IMG/VR virus record: IMGVR_UViG_3300028957_000063
Coordinates: 1-8,511 of that record
Strand: one strand, 5' to 3'
Source: a virus
Taxonomy: Duplodnaviria; Heunggongvirae; Uroviricota; Caudoviricetes
Length of the DNA stretch: 8,511 nt
Part shown: positions 1,641-6,822 of the stretch, piece by piece
Layout: each line of letters begins with the position of its first letter
Numbering within the stretch: position 1 is the stretch's first letter
Translations under genes and position numbers: made by a program
The notes under the pieces: generated by a model
The model's database searches: none
What the model saw: only the letters and a program-made list of their open reading frames with translations
Told to the model about the DNA's origin: nothing

Positions 1641-4016
1641 TTAAGAATCAGCCTGACTCGGGATCAGTTTTTGCCAGATAACTGAAACGTATTTTGCCTG
1701 GTAACGGGCGTCATCAAGTGCATTATGGCGCTCACCTTCGAATGGAATAGCCGTTCTGGCATCGAAGTCTATGGCTTTCCCCAGCTCAACGATTGTGCGT
1801 ACATCGCGATCGTTGTAGTAACGCCACGGGCAGGGGATCCCCTGCCGTTCGTATGAACGGCGCAAAATCGTGTTGTCGAAGTTGGCTCCATTTCCCCAGA
1901 CCTGAACAAAAAATTCACCGGAGTTTTCGTCGATAAATTCCCGCAATTGTAACAGTGCATCATCTAACGGGATTTCATCGGTCATAATGGCAGATTGCGC
2001 TTCGCGTGATTGCTTAAGCCACCATTTAATGGTGTCCCGATCAATGACTCCGCCAGCAGTTTCCAGATCGATAGTCTTACTAAATTCCGGTCCCATATCT
2101 CCGGTTTGCGGATCGAAAAATATTGCACCTATTGAGATGATCGGGGCATCAGGATTTTTTCCCATGGTTTCAAGGTCGATCATTAGATGGTCACACGTCC
2201 TGCTGGTGGATGTGATTTCGTGATGACCGTTCACCGCAATTAAGGGATCTGCCGTCTCGCCAGTTTCATTATCGCTATTGTGATGCTGATTGCCGCCAGT
2301 GTTCTCCTTGTGTGGATGTTCAGCGCCTTCCATTTCCTCCGGATCATTTTCCTGAACTTCAACCTGATTCTCTTCATTGAATGTTTCCTGGTATGTTGCG
2401 TCGCCCATCACCGCGCCACAATCAGGGCAGTTGCCGCCACCGCTCTGACCGCAGGCGGTGCAGACTTTTTCCGTTTCTTGTTGGTTCTGGTTCACTGAAT
2501 CGCGGATTTCAATCCCCTTCACCCATTTCGGATCATTCGGGTCGCTAATTCCTGCAACAAATTCACCGCGAGAGGCCGCAAGCAACTTATCGGCGTCAGG
2601 CTGGCTGATATTGGCTGCCTGCATAATTTTGTTTACTTCGTCAGCGGTAACTTTTACCGGCTCTGGTTGTGCGGTCGTGTCAGATGCACCAGTATTTTGT
2701 TGTGAACCTGAGTACGTGCCGTTTTTACGTGCGAAGTATTCCTCTTTTGTGATTTCCGTAGCTCCCAAGGCCAGTGCTTTTTCCAGACCAGAAAGTTTGT
2801 TTGCGCGACCGTATTTTTCGCCGTCCTTATCGGTGAAAAGGAAATAGAACGGCCCCTCTCGTTCTACAGATGATTCGGCTTCCACTTCGCATTCGGTTTT
2901 TTCGTTGTTCGGCATTGCCGTTTCCACTGCATCAGCTTCTGGTACTGGCGACGGGAGAGTATCAGTTGCGCTCTGATTTGTTCCTTCATCTTCAAACACG
3001 CCCTTTGTAGTCAGGTATTCAGTGATGTATTTGTTCAGCGCCACAGGATCTTTGTGAATGTCGATCGGACGTTCACGAACGAGGCCGAAAATAGTCTGGC
3101 AGCTGTAGTGAAGCGCATCAGGCTGTTTGCGCATTGATGCGGAGATGCGCTTCCAGTCTTCGCGATCCTTGTCGATAACTTCATTTTTTGCCCAGCGATG
3201 GATGCTGCCGTCAATGTTTCCTGCATCAATATCACCAGGCCAGAGAGCGCAGGCCAGTTCTTCATCCAGTGTTTTCCATGTCTGCTTGTATTCGCGACGA
3301 ATGGCGGCAGTGGCGGGGTTGATTTTTCCTGCTGAGTTTTCAGTGTGCTGCCGGTTGACTCTGGCGCGGGCAAGATCAACAACAGACGTGTATTTCCCGG
3401 TTTCTTTGCGTTCGGCTTCGCGACGTTTTTTCCAGGTGCGTAATTCTGTCTGGATCTCAGGCCATTTTGCACCCGGCTTACATTTATGTTTAACCCACCC
3501 GATGGCGAGCAGTTTTAGTTCTGAATACATGACGTTAACTTCAGGCATTTTCATCAATGCCTCAACGATATGCCCGTCGAATGTTGCCATGTCCTCCTGC
3601 AACAATTCCTGTGCACTAATCACCATATCAACGGTGATGTTTTCACATGTACCGAACTTAACCAGGACCGCGTTCTGTACTTCAAGGGACAGCTTGTCAA
3701 AATTGACGTTCATCGGATCGGATTCTGGTTCGACCGGAACAAAGGAAGCGCCTTCCTCATCCCAGCGGTTTTCCAGCATATATTCGGTATCCCAGGAGTC
3801 GATGGCAGGGCGGGGCATGCCGGGTTTATCCTCGCAGACAAGAAATTTATAAGCGCAGTCCTGAGCAGCCGGATATTGCTCCAGGAATTGCCAGGTAAAT
3901 TTGGCACGGGCGCGGCGTTCGTCGCCGGCTTCAATGGCAGTGGCTACAGCGACTGCACCTTCTTCCTTTATTGCCTGTTCGTCCGGAATGGCGGCGCAAA
4001 TAAAGACTTTACTCAT
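1641..4016 (-). CDS. Large prophage protein (791 aa) with a C-terminal DnaQ-like DEDDh 3'-5' exonuclease domain, a CxxC-x10-CxxC zinc-ribbon motif and an acidic linker. Proteins of this kind are often annotated exodeoxyribonuclease VIII-like.
   Basis: Uninterrupted 2376-nt ORF. Exonuclease motifs read in the translation: MIDLETMG (D-x-E, encoded from 2183 downward), WGNGANFD and HNALDDA (H-x4-D). Cys cluster VCTACGQSGGGNCPDCG is encoded at about 2400-2462. Occupies the position of the recombination module (exo/bet or recE) in lambdoid prophages. Confidence 0.8.
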   Translation of the reverse strand: MSKVFICAAIPDEQAIKEEGAVAVATAIEAGDERRARAKFTWQFLEQYPAAQDCAYKFLVCEDKPGMPRPAIDSWDTEYMLENRWDEEGASFVPVEPESDPMNVNFDKLSLEVQNAVLVKFGTCENITVDMVISAQELLQEDMATFDGHIVEALMKMPEVNVMYSELKLLAIGWVKHKCKPGAKWPEIQTELRTWKKRREAERKETGKYTSVVDLARARVNRQHTENSAGKINPATAAIRREYKQTWKTLDEELACALWPGDIDAGNIDGSIHRWAKNEVIDKDREDWKRISASMRKQPDALHYSCQTIFGLVRERPIDIHKDPVALNKYITEYLTTKGVFEDEGTNQSATDTLPSPVPEADAVETAMPNNEKTECEVEAESSVEREGPFYFLFTDKDGEKYGRANKLSGLEKALALGATEITKEEYFARKNGTYSGSQQNTGASDTTAQPEPVKVTADEVNKIMQAANISQPDADKLLAASRGEFVAGISDPNDPKWVKGIEIRDSVNQNQQETEKVCTACGQSGGGNCPDCGAVMGDATYQETFNEENQVEVQENDPEEMEGAEHPHKENTGGNQHHNSDNETGETADPLIAVNGHHEITSTSRTCDHLMIDLETMGKNPDAPIISIGAIFFDPQTGDMGPEFSKTIDLETAGGVIDRDTIKWWLKQSREAQSAIMTDEIPLDDALLQLREFIDENSGEFFVQVWGNGANFDNTILRRSYERQGIPCPWRYYNDRDVRTIVELGKAIDFDARTAIPFEGERHNALDDARYQAKYVSVIWQKLIPSQADS

Positions 4017-4096
4017 TTTGTTTTAACCTCATTACAGATTTAAGGGTGAACAAATCCCTGCCATTGCTGGCATATAAAAATGAAACCGGATATTAA

Positions 4097-4300
4097 TTAC
4101 GGTGCTGTTTTAAGTCCTGCCGGGATTTCGTTATTGTCCATGCGAATAACTTTATCAACCGGATAACAGTTGCCGGGAATTTTCTGTTCCGCTGCGGCAG
4201 CCATGCATTCTTTCATTGAGTCATGTATACCAATAACAAGATCGACTGGTTCGCCTGTATTAAGAAAAACTGTCAGAACGAGTGCAAATGCTGTATTCAT
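4097..4300 (-). CDS. Hypothetical small protein (67 aa from MNTAFALVLTVFLNTG...) with a hydrophobic N-terminus, possibly signal-peptide or membrane associated
   Basis: ATG at 4298-4300 is preceded by AAAGGA. The upstream ORF's stop lies 2 nt before this ATG, suggesting translational coupling. Function unknown. Confidence 0.5.
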   Translation of the reverse strand: MNTAFALVLTVFLNTGEPVDLVIGIHDSMKECMAAAAEQKIPGNCYPVDKVIRMDNNEIPAGLKTAP

Positions 4301-4302
4301 TG

Positions 4303-4485
4303 TCAGCGTCCTTTTTGCATCAGGCGTAAACGGGCCAGCATTGAAACAATGCATATTTGATTTAATAGCTCCCGTTCGTGTTTTCTCTTATTAATGGCAT
4401 CTTCAGTAAATACAGGGTTACTGATTCTGACACCAATTTCAAAACAACCTTCAGACGTATTGACGTTTGGTAATAACGTTTCCAT
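4303..4485 (-). CDS. Hypothetical small protein (60 aa)
   Basis: ATG at 4483-4485 with a GAGGA Shine-Dalgarno sequence about 7 nt upstream. Co-oriented with and tightly coupled to the next small ORF. No family recognised. Confidence 0.5.
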   Translation of the reverse strand: METLLPNVNTSEGCFEIGVRISNPVFTEDAINKRKHERELLNQICIVSMLARLRLMQKGR

Positions 4486-4502
4486 TATCGCGTCCTCAAC
4501 AA

Positions 4503-4662
4503 TGAATTTTGTGATGCGGTGCCTGGTGCCTCCAGGTGACGTTAACCAGTTAACAATTAACGCCGGATACAGGGAAACCCATAAACACCCGATACGGGGG
4601 AACTAATCGCTTTTTAACTGTTCCGCGTGCGCTGAGCCGCATTCACCGCATCACAAAATTCA
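4503..4662. repeat. Perfect 19-bp inverted repeat pair flanking a 122-bp core
   Basis: TGAATTTTGTGATGCGGTG at 4503-4521 is the exact reverse complement of 4644-4662. The core contains hairpin CCTGG-TGCCT-CCAGG (4522-4536) and three closely spaced TTAAC/GTTAAC copies (4550-4570). Confidence 0.7.
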
Positions 4663-4665
4663 CTT

Positions 4666-4712
4666 TAAAAAGGGCGGGTATCACAAGGGAAAACAAAAAA
4701 CGGATACCCGCC
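4666..4712 (-). terminator. Candidate intrinsic terminator for leftward transcription (tL-like)
   Basis: 10-bp GC-rich stem (4673-4682 pairs with 4703-4712) with a 20-nt loop, followed on the minus strand by C then TTTTT (complement of 4667-4671). The loop is long and the U-tract short, so this is tentative. Confidence 0.35.
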
Positions 4713-5052
4713 AAAAGGTAATCAACATGGGTTGTTGTAGCGGGGTTGTCACTCAGGCGTATGGTCAACCTGACAACCCGGTGCCACCAATGGGGGTAAG
4801 GAATAACCCCGCCATACTTACCGCCGCGCCATTTCGCGGATTGCCACAACCGGAAGCGCACGGTCGACGAAAATTTAACGACAGGCTATCTATGAACCAG
4901 CTACCTCGCCGTGCGCTTTCGCGTTATGCCCTGACTTTTCAGGGATATATCCTTTCAGTAAACTGTCAGTGCCGGATGTTCACCCGTGTCCGGCGCACGC
5001 ACTCCACTTCACCCGTGGAGAACTCCTTAATTACCAACCCTCAGGAGGGTGA

Positions 5053-5286
5053 ATGTTAAAATCAACTCTTATTGCTAAATGCCTTTATCAAAATCGCATG
5101 GTAAGCAGCATTTCAATAGGCGAGTCTGCAGTTAAAAGTATTTTCGAAGAGTACTTTCCCGGGCATGATTTTAATAAATGGAATACCAAATTACCGCCAG
5201 CAGTTTCAACGCGTATTCTGAAAGCAACTGAAAGAGCAAGTACAATTCGCGTTAACTATTTCATTAAAGATTTGTGGGATCTTTGA
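5053..5286 (+). CDS. Hypothetical small protein (77 aa), encoded opposite to the surrounding leftward operon
   Basis: Strong Shine-Dalgarno AGGAGG 4-5 nt upstream of ATG 5053. AT-rich codon usage unlike the flanking DNA (by eye). Its 3' end overlaps the convergent 135-aa ORF by 23 nt. No family recognised. Confidence 0.45.
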   Translation: MLKSTLIAKCLYQNRMVSSISIGESAVKSIFEEYFPGHDFNKWNTKLPPAVSTRILKATERASTIRVNYFIKDLWDL

Positions 5287-5671
5287 TATCCACAGAGCCT
5301 AAAGTATGTGCATATGGATGTGCTATTGTGCGCCCTCGCAGATTTGCATCATTTTCTAAATTCACTGAACGAAACAGGGCATCAACAAGGCTCTGTACAA
5401 TGCAAAGGCAATCGAAGACTGTCGCCGTTTCTGTTTTGATTGATGAAAGAACATGGCCATTCACGCAAACAGAAATTACCCGTTTATTAACATCGCTTTC
5501 CTGCTTTTGATTATCAGAACCATATAGCCCAGAAAAAGCATTGCGCACATTACAAACCATATTATCGATGGTTTCTTTTTTGGTGTATGCCGGGTCAATT
5601 TTCACCAGACTATCACCGAGAGTCGTTGCAGCAATTGTCTGGATTTCTTTTGGTAAATCTTTAAATTCCAT
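5264..5671 (-). CDS. Hypothetical protein (135 aa), in an AT-rich accessory segment
   Basis: ATG at 5669-5671 with GAGG about 8 nt upstream. Starts 22 nt after the stop of the upstream 72-aa ORF. No family recognised. Confidence 0.55.
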   Translation of the reverse strand: MEFKDLPKEIQTIAATTLGDSLVKIDPAYTKKETIDNMVCNVRNAFSGLYGSDNQKQESDVNKRVISVCVNGHVLSSIKTETATVFDCLCIVQSLVDALFRSVNLENDANLRGRTIAHPYAHTLGSVDIKDPTNL

Positions 5672-5693
5672 TATTAGCCTCGTTGGTTAGCTA

Positions 5694-5912
5694 TTAACGT
5701 GGGTATGTAATCATTCTTGCAATGCTTAATGCCGCTGCTTTTTCCAGCCTGGTGATATCCTGCTCCAGAGCGGACAGATTTTCAGCCTGCTTAGCCCTGG
5801 CTTCATTGGCCCATTTCAGATCCTGCGCTGCATTAATTTTCTGGCGCATCCACTCATAAAGTTCATCATCGGTATAGTCTGGCGCGATGATGACGGGTTC
5901 TCGTTTCTGCAT
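5694..5912 (-). CDS. Hypothetical small protein (72 aa)
   Basis: ATG at 5910-5912 preceded by GAGGAA. An in-frame TAA lies just upstream at the gap edge, so it is an independent ORF and not a continuation of the gene broken by the N-run. Confidence 0.55.
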   Translation of the reverse strand: MQKREPVIIAPDYTDDELYEWMRQKINAAQDLKWANEARAKQAENLSALEQDITRLEKAAALSIARMITYPR

Positions 5913-5952
5913 ACTGATTCCTCGCGGTGCTGCTTCGCTTATCAGGCGTTAG

Positions 5953-5987
5953 NNNNNNNNNNNNNNNNNNNNNNNNNNNNNNNNNNN
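5953..5987. other. Run of 35 ambiguous bases (N): assembly gap or masked segment of unknown true length
   Basis: Directly visible in the sequence. Confidence 0.99.
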
Positions 5988-6054
5988 CTTCGCCTTCGGC
6001 AAGGCCTTCGAAGTATTCTTCGTAAGCCTTTTCCATGATTGTGTCGAAATCCAT
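5988..6054 (-). CDS. 5' fragment of a small prophage gene (MDFDTIMEKAYEEYFEGLAEGE...) truncated by the N-run. Possibly a YdaF/DUF1391-like protein, but this is very uncertain.
   Basis: ATG at 6052-6054 with AGGTGA upstream. The preceding gene's TGA ends 1 nt before this ATG. The reading frame runs into the 5953-5987 N-run, so the 3' end is unknown. Confidence 0.35.
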
Positions 6055-6055
6055 A

Positions 6056-6211
6056 TCACTCACCTGAGTTTCTTTCCAGCCAGCGACGGGCACCATTTTC
6101 GGTTTTAAACGTTTTGCTTTTGGTATACGTCATCGCGGTGAATGTGCCGTCCTGGTTGGGAAACACGCCGTACACCAGAGATTCGTTGTTGCCAAGATCG
6201 ATAGTATCCAT
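6056..6211 (-). CDS. Small prophage protein (51 aa, MDTIDLGNNESLVYGVFPNQDGTF...), possibly YdaG-like
   Basis: ATG at 6209-6211 with GAGGT 5 nt upstream. It is the first gene downstream of the putative leftward promoter region. The longer ORF-track start at 6265 has no Shine-Dalgarno sequence. The family guess is from memory only. Confidence 0.5.
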   Translation of the reverse strand: MDTIDLGNNESLVYGVFPNQDGTFTAMTYTKSKTFKTENGARRWLERNSGE

Positions 6212-6265
6212 GTTGACCTCATTTCCCCTTAACGCCGGGGTAGCGGAACTGTTTGCTGAGAACAC

Positions 6266-6414
6266 CGTGCGGTGTCTTGATGAATAAAATTTAGAATAAC
6301 CTAAGGTGGATGGTCAAGGTTTTTGTGTAGAAAAACCTAAGTTTTTTTGATGTAAAAAACACAAGTGTTTGAAAGTTTGTGCTTTTTATTACAGGGTGTG
6401 GAGAAAAAAGGGGG
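6266..6414 (-). promoter_or_regulatory. AT-rich intergenic region downstream of the repressor gene: putative leftward early promoter (pL analogue) with operator-like sites
   Basis: On the minus strand, TTGACC (complement of 6313-6318) is followed about 18 nt later by TAAATT. Operator-like imperfect palindromes at 6289-6306 (ATTTAGAATAACCTAAGG) and 6325-6342 (GTGTAGAAAAACCTAAGT) share the TAG-N6-CTAAG core with the pR-side sites. Confidence 0.4.
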
Positions 6415-6822
6415 TTATTTGTTTGCGCTTCTTTTGCGAGCTTTGAGTAGTTCTTCAAAAAGTTTGTTGAAATTTTCAACTCGAGCACGCATCTCTGACA
6501 ACAGGGCCTTTTGCTCTGACTCAGGCAGTGCGTCGAACAGTTGAAGTAACTCTTTTTGATCTTCTGTCAGAATGGCTGGTTGATTATCCGGGAGCGGTTC
6601 GCCTGGTTGTTTATCTTCATCCCCAAAAAGAAGCCAAGTCGGTGAGCACTGAAGCGCTTGGCTCAGTGCGAATAATCTTTTCCCCGCCGGCTGTGTTTCA
6701 TCTCTTTCCCATTGAGAAATTGTTACGTGAGCCACTTTGACCAGCTTACCTAATGCGGCCTGAGACAGTTTTAATTTTTTACGCCTATGTAAGAGGCGAG
6801 CACCGAAGGTTTCGTTTTTCAT
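6415..6822 (-). CDS. dicA: Prophage repressor, HTH XRE-family, DicA-like (cI analogue), 135 aa
   Basis: N-terminal HTH (LSQAALGKLVKVAHVTISQWER). Strong resemblance from memory to E. coli DicA (blocks such as LFALS..LQCSPTWxLFGDEDKQP and EMRARVxNFNKLFEELLKAR). Divergently arranged with a Cro/DicC-like gene. Confidence 0.85.
   Translation of the reverse strand: MKNETFGARLLHRRKKLKLSQAALGKLVKVAHVTISQWERDETQPAGKRLFALSQALQCSPTWLLFGDEDKQPGEPLPDNQPAILTEDQKELLQLFDALPESEQKALLSEMRARVENFNKLFEELLKARKRSANK

What the first reader, a model, noticed from the sequence alone, without database searches (positions are those of the whole stretch)
4666..4712. Terminator-like hairpin in the middle of the leftward operon with no recognisable N-type antiterminator
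A GC-rich stem followed by a short T-run on the minus strand lies between the early accessory genes and the recombination/integration genes, resembling lambda tL. No small arginine-rich N-like ORF follows the putative pL, so it is unclear how downstream genes (exonuclease-like gene, xis, int) are expressed. They may use separate promoters, or an RNA-based or other antitermination mechanism.
Basis: inference. Interest (0 to 1): 0.4.

Follow-up and report, generated by a model that had tools for sequence, protein, structure and literature searches.

The report
DicF-slot small-RNA terminator, divergent allele
The hairpin is real and sits exactly where prophages of the Qin/dicBF type encode the small RNA DicF: it is the leaky built-in terminator that makes that small RNA, here in a divergent, unnamed allele, so no lambda-style N antiterminator needs to be invoked for dicB and ydfD.

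Summary
On the minus strand, GGCGGGTATC (4712-4703) pairs perfectly with GATACCCGCC (4682-4673) around a 20-nt U-rich loop, followed by C+TTTTT (4672-4667). The fold is -18.5 kcal/mol, z -5.4.

It lies in a dicBF operon of a Qin-like lambdoid prophage: dicA, pL, ydfA-B-C, orf135, [hairpin], structured spacer, dicB, ydfD, exonuclease, xis, int. The flanks are about 95-100% identical to E. coli K-12, and the hairpin occupies the dicF position.

In K-12 this terminator is known to be partial. Termination plus RNase E cutting gives 53-nt DicF. Read-through RNA is cut by RNase III (72-nt DicF) and carries dicB-ydfD.

The roughly 55-nt core here is not canonical DicF. It has no Rfam RF00039 hit, against 76.7 bits for K-12, and both known DicF pairing regions are replaced. 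Across 87 related loci the slot holds at least five hairpin types. All keep a GGCGG/CCGCC stem base and a U-run, between conserved flanks.

How exo-xis-int are reached stays open.

Verdict: a known kind of element, and a new, divergent member of it. Modest interest.

The parts
4673..4712 (-). Terminator hairpin: 10-bp perfect stem (4703-4712 / 4673-4682) and a 20-nt U-rich loop (4683-4702)
   Evidence: (I8), 25, 63: -17.7 to -18.5 kcal/mol, z about -5.4
4667..4672 (-). C plus a run of five U directly after the stem, then AAAG
   Evidence: Identical to the K-12 dicF terminator tail in alignment A1
4667..4722 (-). Predicted sRNA at the dicF position (type-B allele, about 52-56 nt). The 5' end is inferred from the aligned RNase E site of K-12 DicF
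   Evidence: Alignment A1 and allele census. The 5' end is inference, not mapped
4723..4737 (-). Small upstream hairpin CAACA/UGUUG just 5' of the sRNA core
   Evidence: Present in type-B and type-C alleles
4845..4926 (-). Upstream stem-loop (13-bp inverted repeat 4851-4863 / 4909-4921) at about the position where RNase III makes the 5' end of the 190-nt DicF precursor in K-12
   Evidence: I5; -29.6 kcal/mol, z -2.3. Processing role inferred from PMC10448788
4503..4662 (-). Structured dicF-dicB spacer closed by a 19-21-bp long-range stem (4644-4662 / 4503-4521). Likely RNase III site that gives the 72-nt 3' end on read-through RNA. Resembles Rfam STnc100, below threshold
   Evidence: I1; 34.3 bits against a gathering score of 47; K-12 spacer 34.4 bits; -98 kcal/mol, z -6.0
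4303..4485 (-). dicB (cell division inhibitor), first gene downstream of the hairpin
   Evidence: Pfam DicB E 1.5e-37
4097..4354 (-). ydfD-like gene (DUF1482). The real start is probably the internal Met, about 4300
5694..5912 (-). ydfC, last conserved pL gene upstream of the sRNA leader
   Evidence: phrog_1744 E 1.9e-39. K-12 ydfC is at the same place
6056..6265 (-). ydfA (DUF1391), first gene after pL. Not N-like
6288..6317 (-). pL / dicBp-like promoter (TTGACC, 18 nt, TAAATT). The transcribed leader after it is nearly identical to K-12
6415..6822 (-). dicA-like repressor (HTH_3)

Best explanation
The hairpin is the Rho-independent terminator, and at the same time the 3' hairpin, of the small RNA encoded at the dicF position of a dicBF operon in a Qin-like lambdoid prophage.

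Proposed mechanism. Transcription from the DicA-repressed pL promoter (dicBp) runs through ydfA-ydfB-ydfC-orf135 and a conserved untranslated leader of about 300 nt. At the hairpin a fraction of polymerases stop. RNase E then trims the 5' side and releases an sRNA of about 55 nt ending in the hairpin and U-tail. Polymerases that read through produce an RNA in which the hairpin is followed by a 19-21-bp long-range stem. RNase III cuts that stem, releasing a 3'-extended form of the sRNA and separating it from the dicB-ydfD message. Downstream genes are thus expressed by leakiness of the terminator, not by an N-type antiterminator.

Shown here: the hairpin, its exact positional homology to dicF, the conserved flanking stems, the structural conservation of the hairpin across divergent alleles, and the absence of N, nut or put.

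Taken from K-12 experiments: partial termination and RNase E / RNase III processing.

Inferred: that this divergent allele behaves the same way, that it is an Hfq-type regulator, and what it targets. The core is a distinct allele (type B). It is not the canonical anti-ftsZ DicF.
For: 1. Context. dicB, ydfD, ydfA, ydfC, a dicA-like repressor and a P22-Cro-like gene lie in the K-12 Qin order.

2. Position. Alignment A1 shows the sequences on both sides of the hairpin nearly identical to K-12 and to phage Tritos, where the corresponding 53 nt are annotated DicF. The leader is conserved for at least 300 nt upstream.

3. Tail. The stem base GGCGG/CCGCC, the CUUUUUAAAG tail and the following long-stem arm are the same as in K-12.

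4. Conservation of structure. In 87 dicB loci all intact alleles fold into a terminator hairpin plus U-run, although there are at least five different upper stems and loops. Type B has GGCGGGUAUC/GAUACCCGCC; type C has GGCGGCAUCAG/CUGAUGUCCGCC. Within-type changes are mixed: three keep a wobble pair (L071, L022, L048) and two break a pair (L041, L056).

5. Mosaic links to DicF. Type B shares its 5' part with type C (identical in most type-B loci; the window has one A-for-G difference just upstream). Type C and the E. albertii allele are weakly recognised by Rfam DicF at 34-45 bits, E 6e-4 to 5e-7.

6. Read-through fold. The read-through RNA 4480-4730 folds at -98 kcal/mol, z -6.0. The hairpin is followed by a 21-bp stem that closes the spacer up to the dicB ribosome-binding site.

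7. Literature on the K-12 homologue. Termination gives 53-nt DicF, RNase III gives the 72-nt form, and RNase E makes the 5' end. Terminated (1,146-nt) and read-through (1,608-nt) transcripts both exist, and no internal promoter was found.

8. A complete phage, Tritos, has the same N-less pL operon. It has an annotated Q but no annotated N.
Against: - The core does not match the Rfam DicF model at all (no hit at E <= 10).
- It lacks both DicF regions shown to pair with targets: the 5' UUUCUGGUGACG region and the loop UUUUACUCCGUGA.
- No expression, termination or processing data exist for this allele.
- A 15-20-nt loop is long for an efficient intrinsic terminator, and the U-run has only five U, so the termination efficiency cannot be predicted.
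- The long-range stem shows only one-sided (wobble) changes, with no double compensatory changes, because it is nearly invariant.
- Hairpin differences between allele types look like block replacements rather than stepwise covariation. An alignment-based covariation test gave only invariant pairs.
Confidence: 0.8

Rival explanations
1. It is a lambda tL1-like terminator that must be overridden by a dedicated antitermination system (protein or RNA) for the downstream genes to be expressed.
For: The layout resembles lambda: a repressor, pL, small accessory genes, a terminator, then recombination and integration genes. In K-12 no transcript beyond ydfD was detected, so something may be needed to reach exo-xis-int in viable phages of this group, such as Tritos.
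Against: There is no N-like ORF after pL. There is no boxA beyond chance: 6 matches against 6.2 expected, none in the leader on the minus strand. The leader is unstructured (z 0.07). No RNA family hit occurs in the leader. In K-12, which has the same leader and terminator tail, read-through to dicB-ydfD occurs without any known antiterminator. ydfB is partly masked by N, so that ORF could not be read fully.
Confidence: 0.07
2. It is only a transcription terminator or attenuator for the upstream genes. The released RNA fragment has no regulatory function of its own; it is a decayed DicF allele.
For: Both known DicF pairing regions are gone. Rfam DicF gives no hit. One locus (L021) carries a deleted, non-folding version, so loss is tolerated. 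The window-type hairpin is rare: 92 of 5,426 complete E. coli genomes.
Against: The hairpin is perfect and more stable than the canonical one (-17.7 against -15.1 kcal/mol). The U-rich stretch before the stem and the U-tail, typical of Hfq-binding sRNAs, are kept. Three type-B sub-alleles keep the stem while varying the loop. The processing scaffold on both sides is intact.
Confidence: 0.12
3. It is a chance inverted repeat, or part of a protein-coding gene (ORF 4643-4861, 72 aa, minus strand).
For: An ORF spans it, and its first 21 residues match phrog_8854 (E 7e-11).
Against: The fold z-score is -5.4. The hairpin is conserved at the same slot in dozens of loci. The ORF starts with GTG. It is interrupted relative to K-12 and Tritos by a 2-nt indel (A1 columns 93-94). 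Its PHROG match covers only the conserved leader.
Confidence: 0.01

Closest known systems
DicF sRNA of the dicBF operon (Qin prophage, E. coli K-12; Rfam RF00039)
   Same: Same operon and the same slot between the ydfC leader and dicB. The flanking sequences are nearly identical. The stem base (GGCGG/CCGCC) and the CUUUUUAAAG tail are the same. The upstream stem-loop and the downstream long-range stem (RNase III scaffold) are the same, and an RNase E-type site lies at the aligned 5' end.
   Different: The core of about 55 nt is replaced. The 5' seed UUUCUGGUGACG is absent. The upper stem and the loop differ (U-rich CGUUUUUUGUUUUCCCUUGU instead of UUUUACUCCGUGA). There is no hit to RF00039, whereas K-12 scores 76.7 bits. 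Regulation of ftsZ, xylR, pykA or manX cannot be assumed.
Lambda tL1 with N/nutL antitermination
   Same: A terminator inside the leftward early operon of a lambdoid prophage, upstream of recombination, xis and int genes.
   Different: No N gene, no nut site, and no evidence that the terminator is regulated. In the K-12 homologue read-through is constitutive and partial, and the terminated product is itself a regulator.
Intra-operonic, terminator-derived sRNAs such as SroC (gltIJKL)
   Same: Early Rho-independent termination inside an operon plus RNase E trimming yields an sRNA, while read-through expresses the distal genes (PMC9438474).
   Different: Here there is an additional RNase III scaffold on both sides, and the element is prophage-borne and polymorphic.
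Rfam STnc100 (RF02076)
   Same: The spacer 4508-4660 aligns to model positions 21-154, including the closing stem and the CACCUGGAGGCACCAGG hairpin.
   Different: 34.3 bits is below the gathering score of 47. The K-12 dicF-dicB spacer scores the same (34.4), so this is a relative of that family, not a curated member.

Membership tests
DicF RNA (Rfam RF00039) | Covariance-model score at or above the gathering score (48 bits) | tested here: not met
   No DicF hit in window 4640-4760 even at E <= 10, nor in the whole window at E <= 1. Control: K-12 dicF scores 76.7 bits. Type-B loci L006, L014 and L040 also give no hit.
DicF RNA (Rfam RF00039) | Location in the dicBF operon between the ydfC leader and dicB | tested here: met
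   Alignment A1 with K-12 and phage Tritos and gene identities.
DicF RNA (Rfam RF00039) | 3' Rho-independent terminator hairpin with a U-tail | tested here: met
DicF RNA (Rfam RF00039) | Target-pairing sequences: 5' region (xylR, pykA) and 3'/loop region (ftsZ ribosome-binding site) | tested here: not met
   Both regions are replaced in A1. The roles of the regions are from PMC5069750. Duplex predictions with the ftsZ leader were uninformative even for canonical DicF.
DicF RNA (Rfam RF00039) | Flanking RNase III stems and an RNase E-generated 5' end | tested here: inconclusive
   The stems are present and conserved. Cleavage itself cannot be tested in silico.
Intrinsic (Rho-independent) terminator | G+C-rich stem directly followed by a U-run | tested here: met
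   10-bp stem with 7 G-C pairs, then CUUUUU.
Intrinsic (Rho-independent) terminator | Short loop (typically 3-8 nt) and a long U-tract, as in efficient terminators | tested here: not met
   The loop is 15-20 nt and the run has only five U, followed by AAAG. This is consistent with a partial terminator.
Intrinsic (Rho-independent) terminator | Transcripts end there in vivo or in vitro | not testable with these tools
   Known only for the K-12 homologue.
Lambda N/nut-controlled terminator (tL1 type) | N-like arginine-rich protein encoded just after pL | tested here: not met
   The ORFs after pL are YdfA (DUF1391), YdfB and YdfC. ydfB is partly masked by N at 5953-5987. Phage Tritos, with the same operon, has an annotated Q but no annotated N.
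Lambda N/nut-controlled terminator (tL1 type) | nut site (boxA and boxB) in the pL leader | tested here: not met
   YGCTCTTWA with up to 1 mismatch gives 6 matches against 6.2 expected, none in the leader on the minus strand.
HK022 put-type RNA antitermination | Stable two-hairpin RNA in the leader just after pL | tested here: not met
   The leader 6205-6282 folds at -17.1 kcal/mol, z 0.07. No RNA family hit there.
Rfam STnc100 (RF02076) | Score at or above the gathering score (47 bits) | tested here: not met
   34.3 bits, E 1.3e-4. The K-12 spacer scores 34.4 bits.

The most novel reading that the evidence does not exclude
The dicF position is a swappable sRNA slot. A conserved processing scaffold (upstream RNase III stem-loop, RNase E site, terminator base and U-tail, downstream RNase III stem) carries at least five different seed and hairpin modules in different prophages. 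The window's type-B module would then be a functional Hfq-type sRNA with a regulon different from DicF, possibly not ftsZ. It is found in about 1.7% of complete E. coli genomes, including O55:H7 and O121:H19 lineages. Prophages would use the slot to diversify host-directed regulation, and genomes with several dicBF copies would carry non-redundant sRNAs.
Probability: 0.4. Interest if true: 0.5.

Novelty: new member of a known kind. Interest (0 to 1): 0.28.

Why it matters
The element as flagged is textbook for this prophage family, so the puzzle of a missing antiterminator largely dissolves for dicB and ydfD.

The useful by-products are these:
- DicF annotation by the Rfam model misses whole allele classes at the same slot.
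- The slot is a hypervariable island between conserved processing signals, which suggests selection for new target specificities.
- Pathogenic lineages carrying several dicBF operons may express different sRNAs rather than extra copies of DicF.
- How xis and int are reached from pL in viable N-less phages of this group remains an open, testable question.

Tried and rejected
1. AgvB (anti-GcvB sponge). I considered it because of the CUACAACAACCC motif just upstream. Rejected: AgvB lies between the late promoter and the lysis genes, not in the pL operon.

2. sRNA-17 of mEp460-like prophages. No matching sequence in the paper's supplementary alignments. The RS218 record is not in the collection.

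3. Prediction of pairing with the ftsZ leader (RNAduplex, whole RNAs and 20-nt windows). Even the validated DicF-ftsZ pair was not better than shuffles (16 of 40), so nothing can be concluded for the window allele.

4. RNAalifold on a MAFFT alignment of allele cores. Only the five invariant base pairs were recovered, and indels between hairpin types defeat column-wise covariation. Per-allele folds were used instead.

5. Searches for boxA/nut and for a put-like leader: negative.

6. ORF 4643-4861 as a gene: rejected because of the 2-nt indel against K-12 and the partial PHROG match.

7. Lack of annotation as a sign of novelty: rejected. RefSeq also leaves canonical dicF unannotated.

8. Faubladier & Bouche 1994, Melson & Kendall 2019 and Murashko & Lin-Chao 2017 could not be read. 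Earlier descriptions of dicF-like variants may therefore exist that I could not check.

Full report
**1. The observation.**
On the minus strand the window reads ...UUGAUUACCUUUU-GGCGGGUAUC-CGUUUUUUGUUUUCCCUUGU-GAUACCCGCC-CUUUUUAAAG. The two arms, 4703-4712 and 4673-4682, are a perfect 10-bp inverted repeat with 20 nt between them (I8).

As RNA, 4664-4725 folds at -18.5 kcal/mol. Dinucleotide shuffles give -7.5 +/- 2.1, so z is -5.4 and none of 200 shuffles folds as well.

The generic terminator scan is not significant for the window as a whole: 13 sites against 10.0 +/- 3.1 expected. Because of its loop limit it lists only a 5-pair sub-hairpin at 4712-4699. On the plus strand the hairpin is followed by AAAAGG, so it can terminate leftward transcription only.

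**2. The surroundings.**
The minus strand encodes, from right to left:
- a DicA-like HTH repressor (6415-6822);
- a promoter-like site, TTGACC-18-TAAATT (6317-6288);
- YdfA (DUF1391, 6056-6265);
- YdfB, partly masked by a run of N at 5953-5987;
- YdfC (5694-5912);
- a 135-aa ORF of phrog_1363 (5264-5671);
- the hairpin;
- DicB (4303-4485, Pfam DicB E 1.5e-37);
- a YdfD-like DUF1482 protein;
- a 791-aa exonuclease;
- an excisionase (DUF1233);
- an integrase.

A P22-Cro-like gene and a YdaT-like gene run rightward from 6899. This is the dicA/dicC immunity region and dicBF operon of Qin-like lambdoid prophages, in the same order as in E. coli K-12 and in complete phages such as Tritos. The best full-length matches are 93-97% identical E. 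coli prophages.

**3. Identity of the hairpin.**
I aligned the window with K-12 and with phage Tritos (A1). The sequences are almost identical for more than 100 nt upstream (...GGTTGACCATACGC.TGAGTGACAACCCCGCT) and from the U-run downstream (CTTTTTAAAGTGAATTTTGTGATG... to the dicB start). The conserved leader extends at least 300 nt upstream.

Between these flanks K-12 and Tritos carry the 53-nt dicF gene, which is annotated in Tritos and scores 76.7 bits on Rfam RF00039 in K-12. The window carries the hairpin of the finding, so the hairpin occupies the dicF slot. The stem base (GGCGG/CCGCC) and the tail (CUUUUUAAAG) are shared. The 5' single-stranded part, the upper stem and the loop are different. 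The window core gives no DicF hit even at E <= 10.

**4. What is known about this slot.**
For K-12 the literature is consistent.
- The 53-nt DicF arises by early Rho-independent termination downstream of ydfC, plus RNase E cleavage at the 5' side.
- RNase III processing of the full-length RNA gives an alternative 72-nt form (PMC5069750; PMC9438474).
- A 190-nt RNase III-dependent precursor exists.
- A 1,146-nt ydfABC-dicF RNA and a 1,608-nt ydfABC-dicF-dicB-ydfD RNA are both seen.
- No promoter inside the operon was found, and no species extending beyond ydfD was detected (PMC10448788).

The terminator is therefore partial, and the terminated product is itself a regulator.

**5. The processing scaffold is intact in the window.**
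Directly after the U-run begins a long-range stem. Its arms, 4644-4662 and 4503-4521, are 19 nt long, 100% complementary and 122 nt apart (I1).

The read-through RNA 4480-4730 folds at -98 kcal/mol (z -6.0). In that fold the terminator hairpin is followed by a 21-bp stem that closes a multibranched spacer ending 17 nt before the dicB ribosome-binding site. A cut 19 nt after the 53-nt end, which would give the 72-nt form, falls inside the 5' arm of this stem; that is inference.

The spacer resembles Rfam STnc100 at 34.3 bits, below the gathering score of 47. The K-12 spacer scores the same. Across 87 loci the stem arms are almost invariant. Eight of about eleven observed substitutions keep a wobble pair, and there are no double compensatory changes.

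Upstream, 4845-4926 forms a stem-loop (-29.6 kcal/mol, z -2.3). It lies at about the distance from the 3' end where the 190-nt precursor begins in K-12; that too is inference.

**6. Diversity of the slot.**
Using DicB as a probe I fetched 80 IMG/VR loci and 7 genome loci. I then extracted the sequence between the conserved anchors. The slot holds at least five hairpin types:
- **A**, canonical DicF.
- **B**, the window type, with sub-alleles that differ in the loop.
- **C**, GGCGGCAUCAG...CUGAUGUCCGCC, with three different 5' parts.
- **D**, a short GGCGGA/UCCGCC hairpin behind a DicF-like 5' part.
- **E**, from E. albertii, with the DicF 5' seed and a C-like hairpin.

Every intact allele folds into a hairpin followed by a U-run. 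One locus (L021) has a deletion that destroys the hairpin.

The alleles are mosaics. B and C share their 5' part (identical in most type-B loci; the window has one A-for-G difference just upstream), and A and E share the DicF seed.

Rfam DicF scores fall in steps: A 76.7 bits, C and E 34-45 bits (significant E-values but below the gathering score), B and D no hit.

Mean pairwise column identity is 0.82-0.94 in the flanks (4737-4776 and 4637-4675) and 0.16-0.57 in the core (4676-4736).

Counts in 5,426 complete E. coli genomes:

| Query | Places | Genomes |
|---|---|---|
| 321-nt region around the slot | 11,234 | 4,718 |
| Canonical 53-nt core | 6,298 | 3,947 |
| Window's hairpin | 93 | 92 |
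| Type-C hairpin, full length | not counted | 108 |

These are megablast counts with short queries and should be read as approximate. The IMG/VR sample is biased towards DicB proteins like the window's.

**7. The antitermination question.**
- None of YdfA, YdfB (partly masked) or YdfC is N-like.
- boxA-like words occur at chance frequency, and none lies in the leader on the right strand.
- The transcribed leader is nearly identical to that of K-12 and is not unusually structured (z 0.07).
- No RNA family matches there.
- The complete phage Tritos has the same operon, an annotated Q and no annotated N.

For dicB and ydfD the K-12 data make a dedicated antiterminator unnecessary. A long loop (15-20 nt) and a run of only five U also fit a leaky terminator.

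For the exonuclease, xis and int the question remains open. K-12 shows no transcript beyond ydfD. A weak hairpin with a T-rich tail lies between ydfD and the exonuclease gene (4059-4072).

**8. What the type-B RNA does.**
This is not established. Both regions of DicF shown to pair with targets (the 5' region for xylR and pykA, the 3'/loop region for ftsZ; PMC5069750) are replaced.

The allele keeps features typical of Hfq-binding sRNAs: a U-rich stretch before a stable terminator hairpin, and a U-tail. It also has a pyrimidine-rich loop (UUUUCCCUU) that could pair with purine-rich ribosome-binding sites. This is inference from general knowledge of such sRNAs. In-silico pairing with ftsZ was uninformative.

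I found no paper in the held library that describes natural dicF-slot alleles with replaced seeds. Three key papers could not be read, so priority cannot be judged. Absence of annotation carries no weight, because RefSeq leaves canonical dicF unannotated too.

**9. Verdict.**
The hairpin is real and functional-looking. It is best explained as the partial intrinsic terminator and 3' hairpin of the dicF-slot sRNA of a dicBF operon, which is a known kind of element.

The specific allele fails the DicF family model and lacks the DicF seeds. I therefore file it as a new, divergent member of the kind, not as DicF.

The terminator and the absence of N are right. The need for an antiterminator is not supported for dicB and ydfD, and is unresolved for exo-xis-int.

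Noticed in passing
window 5953-5987: A run of 35 N (masked sequence) lies inside the ydfB region just after ydfA. ORFs across it (5866-6096 and others) cannot be read, so an unusual small gene there cannot be excluded.
   Followed up: partly
window 5005-5690: Relative to K-12, about 650-700 nt are inserted between ydfC and the conserved dicF leader. The insertion carries a 135-aa minus-strand ORF (5264-5671, phrog_1363, E 7e-46) and a convergent plus-strand 77-aa ORF (5053-5286, phrog_10348, E 1e-47, full length). Neither has a Pfam or NCBIfam match. A gene pointing against the pL operon would collide with leftward transcription upstream of the sRNA.
   Followed up: partly
window 4503-4662: The dicF-dicB spacer is a strongly structured domain closed by a 19-21-bp stem and contains its own variable island (4576-4620, column identity 0.39-0.55). 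It is related to Rfam STnc100 but below threshold, as is the K-12 spacer, so the STnc100 family seems to describe this prophage spacer in other enterobacteria.
   Followed up: partly
window 4059-4072 (minus strand): A weak hairpin, TGCCAGCAATGGCA, followed by GGGATTTGTT lies between ydfD and the exonuclease gene. This is about where the K-12 read-through transcript is reported to end.
   Followed up: no
window 6288-6400: The promoter and operator region differs from K-12 (repeated TTAGGTT motifs, a different immunity), while the transcribed leader from about 6281 onward is nearly identical to K-12. The recombination boundary lies at about the transcription start.
   Followed up: no
window 1641-4016: The 791-aa 'exonuclease VIII' of this prophage group has a C-terminal Rv2179c-like 3'-5' exoribonuclease/RNase T-type domain (E 2e-67), not a RecE-type fold. 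The usual annotation may be misleading.
   Followed up: no
L087 (JAGZPX010000007.1): A contig labelled as a Veillonella parvula MAG carries a canonical E. coli-type dicF-dicB locus. This is probably a binning contaminant.
   Followed up: no
L021, dicF slot (about 1250-1318): One IMG/VR locus has a deletion that removes the 5' arm of a type-C hairpin, leaving no terminator before dicB. It is a natural 'terminator-less' variant.
   Followed up: no
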